This document shows positions 18,001 to 24,000 of a stretch of 64,000 bases of DNA, in pieces (position 1 is the stretch's first letter; the number at the start of each line of letters is the position of its first letter). The stretch is from assembly GCF_036507355.1 (NCBI RefSeq), contig NZ_AP027877.1; one strand, written 5' to 3'. Source of the DNA: Escherichia coli (GTDB lineage Bacteria; Pseudomonadota; Gammaproteobacteria; Enterobacterales; Enterobacteriaceae). The position numbers are program-made.

Positions 18001-21000
18001 GCCAGCCGGGGGCGTCGCTGTTGATATCTTTAAGCTGCGAGGTGAAATTCCCCAGCACCAGCGCCCCGGAGTCCGCCGAGGTCACATAAAACAGCAGGCC
18101 AGTAATGGTGGCGACGGAGGCGCTAAAGGTAAACGCCGGATACTGCGCCAGCAGGCTGTAGAAGCCGCGCTCCGGATGGACCATCGCTTCCTCGGCAAAT
18201 GCCGCTCCGCCGTGGATGATTTCATACAGCGCGCTATTGCCGAACACCGAGAGCCATAACAGCGTGAAGGTAAACGGAATAATCAACGTGCCCAGCACGA
18301 ACTGGCGAATGGTACGCCCACGCGAGATACGCGCCAGGAACAAGCCGACAAACGGCGACCATGCCACCCACCATGCCCAGAAGAAGAGCGTCCAGTTATT
18401 CATCCACTCAACCGGACGGTCGAAGGCAAAACTGTTGAGCGTCATGCCCATAAAGCGATTCACATAGTCGCCAACGTTCAGCACCAGCGCATTAAGCAGG
18501 AACGAGGTGTCGCCCATAAACAGCACGAACAGGATCAGCCCCAGCGCCAGCGCAACGTTGAGTTCCGATAACACACGAATGCCCTTATCGACACCGGAGG
18601 TGACAGAGATCGTTGCGATGATCACCGACAAGGCGATCAGTGCCGCTTTCGCCGCCATTGAATCAGGAATATCAAACAGTACGCTCAAGCCATAGTTAAG
18701 CTGCACCACACCGATACCGAGCGTAGTGGCAATACCGAAGATAGTGCCGATCACCGCTGCAATATCCACAGAGTGCCCTATCGGCCCGTTAATCCGTTTA
18801 CCGAAGATCGGGTACAGCGCCGAGCGGATGGTGAGCGGCAAATTATAACGATAACTAAAGTATCCGAGCGCCATGCCCATCAGCGCATACATCGACCAGC
18901 CGGTTAAGCCGTAGTGAAACAGCGTCCAGACCATCGCCTGACGCGCGGCCTCAATCGTCTGTCCCGCGCCTTCCGGCGGCTGCATATACTGCGTTATCGG
19001 TTCGGCTACGGAAAAGAACATCAGATCGATACCGATCCCGGCAGCAAACAGCATCGCCGCCCAACTCAGCAGGCTGAATTCCGGTTTGGATTGTTCTGGC
19101 CCGAGCTTCACCGAACCAAAACGCGAACAAGCGATACAGACCACAAAGACAATATAGAGCGTTGCCGCCAGCAGATAGTACCAACCGAAGGTTTTAGAAA
19201 CCCAGTCCAGCGTGCGGCCAATCCACAGGGCCGAGAAGTCGCGAAACAGGATCGTTGTCAGGGAAAACAACAAAATCAGTCCGGCGGAGGTGTAAAACAC
19301 CACCGGATTGATTTTGTCCTTTTCCCTGCTGTGTGAAAGGTCTGTCATCCAGTATCCCCACTGTTATTGTTACCATTTAAAATCAAATTCGTAACAATTA
19401 AGACACATTTTATATTGAACGTCCAATCAATAACCGCTTTAATAGATAAACAACGCTGATGAATGGAGTGGCGAAAATGCCCAAATTGGGGATGCAGTCG
19501 ATCCGGCGCAGACAACTGATCGACGCCACACTGGAAGCAATAAATGAAGTGGGCATGCACGATGCAACGATCGCGCAGATCGCCCGCCGTGCAGGCGTTT
19601 CTACGGGGATCATCAGCCACTATTTCAGGGACAAAAATGGTCTGCTGGAAGCAACCATGCGCGATATCACCAGTCAGCTGCGTGACGCGGTTTTGAATCG
19701 ATTACATGCACTTCCGCAGGGCAGTGCAGAGCAGCGATTACAGGCGATTGTTGGCGGAAACTTCGATGAAACGCAGGTGAGCAGTGCGGCGATGAAAGCC
19801 TGGCTGGCGTTCTGGGCCAGCAGTATGCATCAGCCGATGCTCTATCGTTTACAGCAGGTCAGCAGCCGCCGCTTGCTGTCGAATCTGGTGAGCGAGTTTC
19901 GCCGCGAATTGCCGCGCCACCAGGCACAGGAAGCGGGCTACGGCCTTGCCGCGCTGATTGACGGATTATGGCTGCGCGCGGCACTGAGCGGCAAACCGCT
20001 GGATAAACCTCTCGCACACTCGCTGACCCGTCACTTTATTACTCGGCATTTACCCACCGATTAACCGAGGAGACGTGATGTCCCGAATGGCAGAACAGCA
20101 GCTTTATATACATGGTGGTTATACCTCCGCCACCAGCGGTCGCACTTTCGAGACCATTAACCCGGCCAACGGTAACGTGCTGGCGACCGTGCAGGCCGCC
20201 GGGCGTGAGGATGTCGATCGCGCCGTGAAGAGTGCCCAACAGGGGCAAAAAATCTGGGCGGCGATGACCGCGATGGAACGCTCGCGTATTCTGCGTCGGG
20301 CCGTTGATATTCTGCGTGAACGCAATGACGAACTCGCAAAACTGGAAACCCTCGACACCGGAAAAGCATATTCGGAAACCTCAACCGTCGATATCGTTAC
20401 CGGTGCGGACGTGCTGGAGTACTACGCCGGGCTGATCCCGGCGCTGGAAGGCAGCCAGATCCCGTTGCGTGAGACGTCATTTGTTTATACCCGCCGCGAA
20501 CCGCTGGGCGTGGTGGCGGGGATTGGCGCATGGAACTACCCGATCCAGATTGCCCTGTGGAAATCCGCCCCGGCGCTGGCGGCAGGCAACGCAATGATTT
20601 TCAAACCGAGCGAAGTCACCCCGCTTACCGCGTTAAAGCTGGCTGAAATTTACAGCGAAGCGGGCCTGCCGGACGGCGTATTTAACGTGTTGCCGGGCGT
20701 GGGCGCGGAGACCGGGCAATATCTGACCGAGCATCCGGGCATTGCCAAAGTGTCATTTACCGGCGGTGTCGCCAGCGGCAAAAAAGTGATGGCTAACTCG
20801 GCGGCCTCTTCCCTGAAAGAAGTGACCATGGAACTGGGCGGTAAATCACCGCTGATCGTTTTCGATGATGCGGATCTCGATCTCGCCGCCGATATCGCCA
20901 TGATGGCAAACTTCTTCAGCTCCGGTCAGGTGTGTACCAATGGCACCCGCGTCTTCGTTCCGGCGAAATGCAAAGCCGCATTTGAGCAGAAAATTCTGGC

Positions 21001-24000
21001 GCGCGTTGAGCGCATTCGCGCGGGCGACGTTTTCGATCCGCAAACTAACTTCGGCCCGCTGGTCAGCTTCCCGCATCGCGATAACGTGCTGCGCTATATC
21101 GCCAAAGGCAAAGAGGAAGGCGCGCGCGTACTGTGCGGCGGCGATGTACTGAAAGGCGATGGCCTCGATAACGGCGCATGGGTTGCACCGACCGTGTTCA
21201 CCGATTGCAGCGACGAGATGACCATCGTGCGTGAAGAGATCTTCGGGCCGGTGATGTCCATTCTGACCTACGAGTCGGAAGACGAAGTCATTCGCCGCGC
21301 CAATGATACCGACTACGGTCTGGCGGCGGGTATCGTGACGACGGACCTGAACCGCGCGCATCGCGTCATTCATCAGCTGGAAGCGGGTATTTGCTGGATC
21401 AACACCTGGGGCGAATCCCCGGCAGAGATGCCCGTTGGCGGCTACAAACACTCCGGTATTGGCCGCGAGAACGGCGTGATGACGCTCCAGAGTTACACCC
21501 AGGTGAAGTCCATCCAGGTTGAGATGGCTAAATTCCAGTCCATATTCTAACCAGGAGGTTTATTTGCAATTTGACTACATCATTATTGGTGCCGGCTCAG
21601 CCGGCAACGTTCTCGCTACCCGTCTGACTGAAGATCCGAATACCTCCGTGCTGCTGCTTGAAGCGGGCGGCCCGGACTATCGCTTTGACTTCCGCACCCA
21701 GATGCCCGCTGCCCTGGCATTCCCGCTACAGGGTAAACGCTACAACTGGGCTTACGAGACGGAACCTGAACCGTTTATGAATAACCGTCGCATGGAGTGC
21801 GGACGCGGTAAAGGCCTGGGTGGATCGTCGCTGATCAACGGCATGTGCTACATCCGTGGCAACGCGATGGATCTCGACAACTGGGCAAAAGAACCCGGTC
21901 TGGAGAACTGGAGTTATCTCGATTGCCTGCCCTACTACCGCAAGGCCGAGACCCGCGACGTGGGCGAGAACGACTACCACGGCGGCGACGGCCCGGTGAG
22001 CGTCACCACCTCCAAACCCGGCGTCAATCCGCTGTTTGAAGCGATGATTGAAGCGGGCGTGCAGGCGGGCTACCCGCGCACGGACGATCTCAACGGTTAT
22101 CAGCAGGAAGGTTTCGGCCCGATGGATCGCACCGTCACGCCGCAGGGCCGCCGCGCCAGCACCGCGCGCAGTTATCTCGATCAGGCCAAATCGCGCCCAA
22201 ACCTGACCATTCGTACTCACGCCATGACCGATCACATTATTTTTGACGGTAAACGCGCGGTAGGCGTCGAGTGGCTGGAAGGCGACAGCACCATTCCGAC
22301 CCGCGCGACGGCGAACAAAGAAGTGCTGTTATGTGCAGGCGCGATTGCCTCACCGCAGATCCTGCAACGCTCTGGCGTCGGCAACGCTGAACTGTTGGCC
22401 GAGTTTGATATTCCGCTGGTGCATGATTTACCCGGCGTCGGTGAAAATCTTCAGGATCATCTGGAGATGTATCTGCAATATGAGTGCAAAGAACCGGTTT
22501 CCCTCTACCCTGCCCTGCAGTGGTGGAATCAGCCGAAAATCGGTGCGGAGTGGCTGTTTGGCGGCACCGGCGTTGGTGCCAGCAACCACTTTGAAGCAGG
22601 CGGATTTATTCGCAGCCGAGAGGAATTTGCGTGGCCGAATATTCAGTACCATTTCCTGCCAGTAGCGATTAACTATAACGGCTCGAATGCAGTGAAAGAG
22701 CACGGCTTCCAGTGCCACGTCGGATCGATGCGCTCGCCAAGCCGTGGGCATGTGCGGATTAAATCCCGCGACCCGCACCAGCATCCGGCGATTCTGTTTA
22801 ACTACATGTCGCACGAGCAGGACTGGCAGGAGTTCCGCGACGCAATTCGCATCACCCGCGAGATCATGCATCAACCGGCGCTGGATCAGTATCGTGGCCG
22901 CGAAATCAGCCCCGGCACGGAATGTCAGACGGATGAGCAGCTCGATGAGTTCGTGCGTAATCACGCCGAAACCGCCTTCCATCCGTGCGGTACCTGCAAA
23001 ATGGGCTACGACGAGATGTCCGTGGTTGACGGCGAAGGCCGCGTGCATGGGCTGGAAGGCCTACGCGTGGTGGATGCGTCAATTATGCCGCAGATTATCA
23101 CCGGCAATTTGAACGCCACGACAATTATGATTGGCGAGAAAATAGCGGACATGATTCGTGGACAGGAAGCGCTGCCAAGGAGCACGGCGGGATATTTTGT
23201 GGCAAATGGGATGCCGGTGAGAGCGAAAAAATGAGTCGTGATGTGAACTAACGCAGGAACCGATCAGATTGAGAGTTACCGTTCCAGAGAGGGGGGCTGA
23301 ATCCTTATATAAACACTGAGGTAACTCTCATGCTTCATAGTGACAACCTCGCCAGCAAATTCTAAGCGGACTCGTTCAATCTGGCTGATGAAGGTGCTAT
23401 GAATGCACTGATAAACCGCAGGTGAAATGCCACTCAGCTTAAGAATTACGCCGCTAGTGTTCCTGGCTATGGTGACTTGTTCACTCCCGCTCACGGTTAG
23501 CATATACGAAAAGGGTTCTTGAAACGAGGACAAAAATAAGTCAGACCAAAACAACGTGGAGCTTTAAACACGATTCGTATAATTTATTAGCAGTGATTTA
23601 TTTTTACTCTTCTTTAGTTAATCATCATGCTTAAATATTTTTTAGCACAAGATTATCGCTTCGCTAACATTTTAGTTTACATTGATTTCCAATTGATAAT
23701 AAAAAGTTGTTAATAAGTTTATGCGAAAAATAAAAATTGTTGAAATACTCTCCAGCAAACGAATGCAAAATAAACAAACTGAGGTTTACAAAAAAACAAA
23801 AGCTATTCAAAAGAACATTTTTAATTTATTAGCAGAGTTCATTAACAATGGTTTACTCACGACCAGAAAATTAAAGAACACCTTGCAATAATATGTATTT
23901 ATAAATTCATATCATTGATATTAAACTAATCTCACCTTCTACCTTATAATTTCACCAACCAAAAACAAAAGAAAAATCAATTAGATACACAATAAAGCGT

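What the first reader, a model, noticed from the sequence alone, without database searches (positions are those of the whole stretch)
19349..21566. bet regulon control region and TTG start for betA
The 128-bp divergent region contains the near-palindrome attgaacgtccaat, a candidate BetI operator. betA appears to start at TTG (21564) behind a strong aggagg RBS; the ATG-based ORF call 45 bp upstream would add 15 residues ahead of the FAD-binding motif.
Basis: partly seen in the sequence, partly recalled or inferred. Interest (0 to 1): 0.2.

Follow-up and report, generated by a model that had tools for sequence, protein, structure and literature searches.

The report
E. coli bet operon control region
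This is the well-studied Escherichia coli betT/betIBA locus for making the osmoprotectant glycine betaine from choline; the palindrome is the known BetI repressor site and the TTG start of betA is already the standard annotation, so the finding is correct but ordinary.

Summary
The window holds the E. coli bet regulon: betT (17315-19348, minus strand) and betI-betB-betA (19477-23234, plus strand). It is 99.6% identical to sequenced E. coli, and its control region is nearly identical to K-12.

The sequence claims hold:
- The divergent spacer is 128 bp.
- ATTGAACGTCCAAT lies at 19414-19427.
- AGGAGG lies 5 nt before a TTG at 21564.

One detail is wrong. The in-frame codon 45 nt upstream (21519) is TTG, not ATG. 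The nearby ATG (21524) is in the betB frame.

Both interpretations are supported, and both are already established:
- **BetI site.** The palindrome matches the published betI box. It is nearly invariant 46-52 nt upstream of betI in about 60 Enterobacterales species and overlaps the inferred -35 hexamers of both divergent promoters. Genomic SELEX places BetI's single target in this spacer.
- **betA start.** K-12 and RefSeq annotate betA from this TTG. Orthologues carry TTG or ATG at this codon, and ten species have no upstream in-frame alternative. A published in-vitro initiation-site profiling study detected initiation there in 5 of 5 replicates.

The palindrome alone is not statistically unusual: 26% of shuffles give one. 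The adjacent inverted repeat (19366-19408) is the published ArcA site.

Novelty: already known. Interest is low.

The parts
17315..19348 (-). betT, choline BCCT transporter (677 aa)
   Evidence: ORF. RefSeq annotation of the 99.6%-identical genome. NCBIfam NF007399 BetT, 1314 bits against a cutoff of 695.
19349..19476 (.). 128-bp divergent betT/betI control region
   Evidence: It differs from K-12 MG1655 at two positions only, 19374 and 19453.
19366..19408 (-). ArcA-P binding site: four direct repeats at 11-bp spacing. It contains the inverted repeat ATTGTTACCATTT/AATTCGTAACAAT.
   Evidence: Inverted repeat found. The Park et al. 2013 supplement gives the K-12 site ATGTGTCTTAATTGTTACGAATTTGATTTTAAATAGTAACAAT at -18 to +25 of betT. 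The window's reverse complement differs at one base.
19390..19390 (-). betT transcription start (derived)
   Evidence: Derived from the ArcA site spanning -18 to +25 of the betT start. This is inference from a published table, not measured here.
19397..19402 (-). betT -10 hexamer CTTAAT (inferred), preceded by TGT
   Evidence: Position relative to the derived start at 19390, read from the sequence. Inference.
19421..19426 (-). betT -35 hexamer TTGGAC (inferred, 18-nt spacer)
   Evidence: Sequence reading plus the derived start. Inference.
19414..19427 (.). BetI operator core (betI box) ATTGAACGTCCAAT, covering both inferred -35 hexamers
   Evidence: Conserved 46-52 nt upstream of betI in all Enterobacterales loci, and a perfect palindrome, ATTGAACGTTCAAT, in several. 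Conserved block 19409-19434. betI box consensus. SELEX target.
19415..19420 (+). betI -35 hexamer TTGAAC (inferred)
   Evidence: Sequence reading. 17-nt spacer to TTTAAT. Inference.
19438..19443 (+). betI -10 hexamer TTTAAT (inferred); start near 19450
   Evidence: Conserved. The start near 19450 follows from the ArcA site lying 42 to 88 nt from the betIBA start. The simple promoter scan missed it because it requires A at position 2 of the -10 hexamer.
19465..19468 (+). Shine-Dalgarno GGAG for betI, 8 nt before the ATG
   Evidence: conserved GGAG.
19477..20064 (+). betI, TetR-family choline-responsive repressor (195 aa)
   Evidence: Annotation. NCBIfam equivalogs NF001978 (304 bits) and TIGR03384 (264 bits). 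Pfam TetR_N plus TetR_C_6.
20078..21550 (+). betB, betaine-aldehyde dehydrogenase (490 aa)
   Evidence: NF009725, 918 bits.
21519..21521 (+). Upstream in-frame TTG, rejected as a start. It lies inside betB (codons Val-Glu read in another frame).
   Evidence: There is no spaced Shine-Dalgarno sequence. The codon is absent or unusable in 10 of the 35 TTG-start species and in the ATG-start species.
21553..21558 (+). Shine-Dalgarno AGGAGG for betA, 5 nt before the TTG
   Evidence: Orthologues have (A/G)GGAGG or TGAGGA at the same place.
21564..23234 (+). betA, choline dehydrogenase (556 aa), starting at TTG 21564-21566
   Evidence: Annotation. TIGR01810, 1034 bits. Comparative start analysis. INRI-seq peak.

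Best explanation
The region is the control and coding core of the E. coli bet regulon. Two back-to-back sigma-70 promoters in the 128-bp spacer drive betT leftward and betIBA rightward.

BetI, a TetR-family dimer encoded by the first gene of the operon, binds the dyad ATTGAACGTCCAAT (19414-19427). This dyad lies across the -35 hexamers of both promoters, so a single bound repressor lowers both transcripts. Choline relieves the repression. ArcA-P binds four direct repeats at 19366-19408, over the betT start, and represses both promoters without oxygen.

betA is translated from TTG 21564, 13 nt after the betB stop and 5 nt after AGGAGG. This gives the 556-residue FAD enzyme whose Rossmann motif starts at residue 9.

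Shown here: gene identities, sequence identity to K-12, conservation of the box and of the start codon position.
Taken from the literature: BetI and ArcA binding, and initiation at the TTG in vitro.
Inferred: the exact promoter hexamers and the overlap of the box with both -35 elements.
For: Identity of the locus:
- 99.6% identical to E. coli genomes annotated betT, betI, betB and betA.
- The spacer differs from K-12 at 2 of 128 positions, neither of them in the box or the hexamers.
- All four proteins exceed the NCBIfam equivalog or subfamily cutoffs.

Operator:
- The box is 46-52 nt upstream of betI in all 60 or so Enterobacterales loci with the betI upstream region, and related boxes lie 45-61 nt upstream in Pseudomonas.
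- The block 19409-19434 is at least 90% conserved in nearly every column, while the flanks drift.
- The published betI box consensus matches, for example ATTGACG*CGTCAAT, which was footprinted in Ruegeria.
- Genomic SELEX found the betI/betT spacer to be the only specific BetI target.
- The 46-nt core is identical in 5124 of 5181 E. coli records.

ArcA:
- ChIP and site table.

betA start:
- K-12 b0311 and PGAP both start at this TTG.
- The homologous codon is TTG in 35 loci and ATG in 36, and 10 of the TTG loci have no in-frame upstream start.
- Family models begin at residues 1-4 of the TTG protein, and the 15-residue extension lies outside Pfam GMC_oxred_N.
- INRI-seq peaks of 70-105 CPM appeared in 5 of 5 replicates at K-12 327247.
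Against: - Nothing was measured in this strain.
- The palindrome alone is not statistically unusual.
- Conservation of the box could partly reflect the two -35 hexamers it contains.
- The promoter hexamers are my reading; the simple promoter scan found none.
- The primary footprinting and promoter-mapping papers (Rokenes 1996, Lamark 1996) could not be read here. The statement that BetI protects about 21 nt over both -35 boxes therefore rests on my memory of the abstract.
- The INRI-seq construct starts 30 nt upstream of the TTG, so it could not test the codon at -45.
- In-vivo Ribo-RET gave no signal for betA because the gene was not expressed.
- A recent N-terminomics table held no b0311 entry, though the stored file was cut.
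Confidence: 0.95

Rival explanations
1. betA starts at the upstream in-frame TTG (21519), giving a 571-residue protein that overlaps the last 32 nt of betB. This is the mechanical longest-ORF call.
For: It is the first start codon after the in-frame stop, so the ORF lister reports 21519-23234. The codon is present in 25 of the 35 loci that have a TTG at the downstream position.
Against: - There is no properly spaced Shine-Dalgarno sequence; the only AGG directly abuts the codon.
- Klebsiella, Raoultella and several Citrobacter have no in-frame start there, and the ATG-start species have stops 3-18 nt upstream of their start.
- The 15 residues fall outside every family model.
- Curated and automatic annotations both reject it.
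- The TTG is explained as betB's Val-Glu codons read out of frame.
Confidence: 0.03
2. The near-palindrome is not a repressor site as such. It is conserved only because it contains the two overlapping -35 hexamers, and its symmetry is incidental to back-to-back promoters.
For: Near-palindromes of this quality arise in 26% of shuffles. The box does coincide with both inferred -35 hexamers.
Against: - Conservation extends symmetrically beyond the hexamers, over 19409-19434.
- Several species improve it to a perfect palindrome.
- The same box lies upstream of betI in Pseudomonas loci, some of which have no betT-like match next to betI.
- The box matches sites footprinted with BetI in other bacteria.
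- SELEX places BetI in this spacer.
Confidence: 0.03
3. The functional operator is larger than, or offset from, the 14-mer. One possibility is a 20-26 bp site such as TTTATATTGAACGTCCAATCAATAAC, with the 14-mer as its core only.
For: The conserved block spans 26 nt. In Pseudomonas the symmetry extends outward, as in TTGATTGAACGTTCAACAA. TetR-family footprints are usually longer than the dyad; 29 bp was protected in Ruegeria.
Against: This refines the main explanation and does not contradict it. In E. coli the flanks (TAT on one side, CAA on the other) are not symmetric.
Confidence: 0.5

Closest known systems
E. coli K-12 betT-betIBA regulon (b0311-b0314) with its BetI operator and ArcA site
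   Same: - Same genes, order and orientation.
- The spacer is identical at 126 of 128 positions, with the box, the hexamers and the betA ribosome-binding site and TTG all identical.
- The ArcA site differs by one base.
   Different: - Strain-level differences only. BetI is 97.4% identical to K-12, with the changes near the C-terminus.
- The neighbours differ: the ehaA adhesin gene lies beside betT, and ipbA with IS1 lies beyond betA.
betI box of other Proteobacteria (Pseudomonas, Sinorhizobium, Ruegeria BetI1)
   Same: Half-sites ATTGA and TCAAT around a central CG-rich core, placed over the -35 region of a bet promoter.
   Different: In E. coli a single box serves two divergent promoters. Published work also reports that E. 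coli BetI stays bound when choline is present, unlike classical TetR release.
TetR/tetO divergent-promoter control
   Same: A TetR-family repressor gene is transcribed divergently from a transporter gene, with the operator in the shared spacer.
   Different: TetR uses two tandem operators and leaves the DNA when the inducer binds. Here there is a single dyad, and the repressor gene heads the biosynthetic operon.

Membership tests
E. coli bet regulon (betT / betIBA) | Four genes in the order betT, then divergently betI-betB-betA, each matching its equivalog model | tested here: met
   NCBIfam scores are above the cutoff for all four proteins. The annotation of near-identical genomes agrees.
BetI operator (betI box) | Dyad with half-sites ATTGA / TCAAT | tested here: met
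   ATTGAACGTCCAAT matches 9 of the 10 half-site positions. Consensus from PMC12442346.
BetI operator (betI box) | Located in a bet gene promoter, overlapping the -35 region | tested here: met
   The box at 19414-19427 covers TTGAAC (betI) and TTGGAC (betT). The transcription starts were derived from the Park 2013 table. The hexamer assignment is inferred.
BetI operator (betI box) | Conserved among orthologous loci at a fixed position | tested here: met
   46-52 nt upstream of betI in all Enterobacterales loci examined.
BetI operator (betI box) | Physically bound by BetI | not testable with these tools
   Published for the K-12 spacer, whose box and promoter hexamers are the same as here: genomic SELEX and gel shift. 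The primary footprint paper is not held.
GMC oxidoreductase / choline dehydrogenase BetA | N-terminal FAD-binding GxGxxG close to the start, plus GMC N and C domains | tested here: met
   GAGSAG at residues 9-14 of the TTG-start protein. GMC_oxred_N and GMC_oxred_C. TIGR01810, 1034 bits.
Non-ATG (UUG) initiation | Shine-Dalgarno sequence at proper spacing, and the start position shared with orthologues | tested here: met
   AGGAGG plus 5 nt. The same codon position is TTG or ATG in 71 loci.
Non-ATG (UUG) initiation | Direct evidence of initiation at the codon | tested here: inconclusive
   Literature only. There is an in-vitro INRI-seq peak in 5 of 5 replicates, but no in-vivo signal and no N-terminal peptide was found.
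ArcA-P direct-repeat site | TGTTA-like repeats at 11-bp phasing, with ChIP occupancy | tested here: met
   The window sequence equals the published four-repeat site apart from one base. The occupancy data are from K-12.

The most novel reading that the evidence does not exclude
The choice of UUG or AUG at the betA start may be a clade-level tuning device. Escherichia, Enterobacter, Klebsiella and Citrobacter keep UUG behind a very strong Shine-Dalgarno sequence, 13 nt after the betB stop. Pantoea, Erwinia, Kosakonia and Tatumella use AUG. This could set the BetA:BetB ratio or make betA translation depend on ribosomes arriving from betB. A second, less likely reading is a minor N-extended BetA isoform made from 21519.
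Probability: 0.2. Interest if true: 0.2.

Novelty: already known. Interest (0 to 1): 0.05.

Why it matters
The finding matters little. It checks that a tool-free reader correctly recovered a textbook regulatory site and a correct non-ATG start, and it shows that a longest-ORF gene call would mis-start betA (and also betI and betB) by a few codons. The cross-species table of the betA start codon and of the betI box is a tidy confirmation, not a discovery.

Tried and rejected
- **Primary papers.** Reading the primary papers on the bet promoters and the BetI footprint (PMC177851, PMC177852) and the TetR-family review (PMC1197418) failed; none is held.
- **Full-text searches.** A search for the operator sequence found nothing. 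A search for papers on the betA TTG start gave nothing relevant.
- **Start-site datasets.** The Ribo-RET preprint has no supplementary files held. The TRAINSPOTTER N-terminomics supplement has no b0311 entry, and the stored file was cut.
- **Automatic scans.** The promoter and terminator scan found no promoter in the spacer because its rule excludes TTTAAT and CTTAAT -10 hexamers. The inverted-repeat finder did not report the 14-mer, because its arms have no 6-nt exact seed, but it did reveal the ArcA-site repeat.
- **Missing E. coli hit.** The genome-contig scan did not return E. coli itself. One pattern back-translates M as ATG, but I did not work out why the others missed it. K-12 was fetched by accession instead.
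- **Rejected readings.** I considered and rejected the start at 21519 and a purely promoter-based explanation of the palindrome (see the rival explanations).
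Full report
**What is there**

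The stretch 17315-23234 carries four genes:
- betT on the minus strand, 17315-19348
- betI, 19477-20064
- betB, 20078-21550
- betA, 21564-23234

A megablast of 19000-21900 matched 5183 of 5426 complete E. coli genomes. The best hit was 99.6% identical, and every hit is annotated betT, betI, betB and betA. The RefSeq coordinates of the best hit map onto the window exactly as listed above, and the curated K-12 MG1655 record has the same four genes, b0311-b0314. All four proteins exceed the curated NCBIfam cutoffs: BetI 304 bits, BetB 918, BetA 1034, BetT 1314.

**Checking the observation**

ATTGAACGTCCAAT sits at 19414-19427. Its reverse complement differs at two positions, so 6 of 7 pairs are symmetric. 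AGGAGG is at 21553-21558 with 5 nt before TTG 21564, and translation from there reads [13 protein letters not shown].

One statement is wrong. The in-frame codon 45 nt upstream (21519) is TTG, not ATG. The ATG at 21524 is Met483 of betB, in a different frame. No in-frame ATG exists between the stop at 21504 and the FAD motif.

As for chance, the symmetry alone is unremarkable. 26% of dinucleotide-preserving shuffles of the spacer contain an equally good 14-mer, and a loose ATTGA-N4-TCAAT pattern occurs in the window as often as in shuffles.

**The operator**

The window's spacer differs from K-12 at 19374 and 19453 only. The box and everything between 19375 and 19452 are identical.

I fetched 80 loci from other species with BetA as the query and located betI in each. 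In every Enterobacterales locus with the upstream region present, the box ATTGAACGTNCAAT lies 46-52 nt before the betI ATG. Cedecea and some Citrobacter, among others, have the perfect palindrome ATTGAACGTTCAAT. Pseudomonas loci have related boxes 45-61 nt upstream.

In an alignment of 61 distinct Enterobacterales spacers, the block 19409-19434 is at least 90% conserved in nearly every column. Three smaller conserved islands are TAACAA (19392-19397), the TTTAAT hexamer (19438-19443) and GGAG before the ATG. The rest of the spacer drifts. Within E. coli, the 46-nt core 19403-19448 is identical in 5124 of 5181 records.

The literature agrees:
[quoted passage not shown] It found that a footprinted Ruegeria site, ATTGACG*CGTCAAT, matches their consensus and covers a -35 box.
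- Genomic SELEX found that, with choline or KCl present, BetI binds only the betI/betT spacer in the E. coli genome and stays bound with inducer.

From memory of the Rokenes et al. 1996 abstract, which I could not open, BetI protects about 21 nt covering both -35 boxes.

**Promoter geometry**

Park et al. 2013 list a four-repeat ArcA site for betT, ATGTGTCTTAATTGTTACGAATTTGATTTTAAATAGTAACAAT. They place it at -18 to +25 of the betT start and 42 to 88 nt from the betIBA start. Its reverse complement is window 19366-19408 with one base changed.

This puts the betT start at 19390 and the betI start near 19450. That fits my recollection that the two starts are 61 bp apart.

Reading back from these starts gives:
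- betI: -10 TTTAAT (19438-19443) and -35 TTGAAC (19415-19420)
- betT: -10 CTTAAT (19402-19397) and -35 TTGGAC (19426-19421)

The box therefore spans both -35 hexamers. The hexamer assignment is my inference; the simple promoter scan did not call them.

The inverted repeat that the repeat finder did report, 19366-19378 paired with 19386-19398, is part of the ArcA site, not a second BetI site. ArcA ChIP and expression data list betIBA and betT as directly repressed operons.

**The betA start**

K-12 and PGAP both start betA at this TTG, in an identical sequence context.

Across the 82 fetched loci plus the window, the codon homologous to 21564 is:
- TTG in 35: Escherichia, Pseudocitrobacter, Enterobacter, Klebsiella, Raoultella, Citrobacter and relatives.
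- ATG in 36: Trabulsiella, Pluralibacter, Cedecea, Pantoea, Kosakonia, Tatumella, Erwinia and Rosenbergiella.
- Pseudomonas and Moraxella start one or two codons earlier, with ATG.

Ten of the TTG loci have no in-frame ATG, GTG or TTG upstream before the stop. Most ATG loci have a stop 3-18 nt upstream. A purine-rich Shine-Dalgarno sequence is always 5-8 nt upstream.

The upstream TTG at 21519 exists only where betB's Val-Glu codons happen to read GTTGAG. It has no spaced Shine-Dalgarno sequence.

Family models start at residues 1-4 of the TTG protein. In the 571-residue version, Pfam GMC_oxred_N begins at residue 18.

Experimentally, INRI-seq used in-vitro translation of a synthetic pool carrying 30 nt of leader and 150 nt of ORF per K-12 gene, arrested with retapamulin. 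It recorded a peak at the annotated betA start, K-12 327247, of 70-105 CPM in all five replicates. No alternative site was listed for betA. In-vivo Ribo-RET gave zero signal, as expected for an uninduced gene. The construct excludes position -45, so it does not by itself rule out 21519; the comparative data do.

The 81-nt junction is identical in 5141 of 5183 E. coli records.

**Mechanism**

This is a single-operator, two-promoter switch. BetI, bound at the dyad, blocks or hampers RNA polymerase at both -35 elements. Choline changes the complex so that transcription proceeds. ArcA-P, bound over the betT start, adds anaerobic repression. Osmotic induction acts on the promoters themselves.

betI, betB and betA are read from one transcript with 13-nt gaps. 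Both gaps have the form TAACC-purine-rich Shine-Dalgarno, which favours coupled translation.

Binding and induction are taken from the literature. The geometry is partly inferred.

**Verdict**

Everything in it is established knowledge for E. coli K-12, and the window's control sequences are nearly the same as in K-12. Novelty: already known. Interest: about 0.05.

Noticed in passing
window 19366-19408: A 13-nt inverted repeat (ATTGTTACCATTT / AATTCGTAACAAT) lies next to the BetI box. It coincides with the published four-direct-repeat ArcA site over the betT start. This strain has G where K-12 has A in the fourth repeat (window 19374 C, against T in K-12).
   Followed up: yes
window 19459-19479 and 20075-20080: The mechanical longest ORFs start betI at ATG 19459, 6 codons early, and betB at GTG 20075, 1 codon early. 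Annotation uses ATG 19477 and ATG 20078, each behind a spaced GGAG or GAGGAG. So all three genes of the operon, not just betA, are mis-started by a longest-ORF rule.
   Followed up: partly
K-12 betI start 329334 (window 19477): INRI-seq found no initiation peak at the annotated betI start in any of five replicates, and listed no alternative site, while betB, betA and betT all gave peaks. This fits my recollection that BetI is made at about a tenth of the rate of BetA and BetB, but no mechanism is evident from the sequence.
   Followed up: no
window 20062-20080 and 21548-21566: The betI-betB and betB-betA junctions share one design: TAA-CC, a purine-rich Shine-Dalgarno sequence, and a 13-nt gap between stop and start (TAACCGAGGAGACGTGATG and TAACCAGGAGGTTTATTTG).
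   Followed up: no
window 13028-16807 (minus strand): A 1259-aa ORF between pdeL and betT matches the autotransporter adhesin gene ehaA. This segment is found in only 1423 of 5426 complete E. coli genomes and is absent from K-12 and from the best-matching bet locus.
   Followed up: partly
window 23235-27000: Downstream of betA the sequence matches the ipbA (hbiF/fimX) invertase region together with IS1 copies. No E. coli genome covers more than about half of this stretch in one piece, which suggests a strain-specific rearrangement or insertion.
   Followed up: no
L001 / L083 (E. coli GDSC2227PM) betA: The closest genome annotates betA as 562 aa, against 556 aa in the window and K-12. This is a C-terminal difference and has nothing to do with the start codon.
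   Followed up: no
Genome-contig scan: No Escherichia genome appeared among the 80 loci kept. A published survey says E. albertii and E. fergusonii lack betI, so the locus is patchy within the genus. Why the E. coli representative was not returned was not resolved.
   Followed up: no
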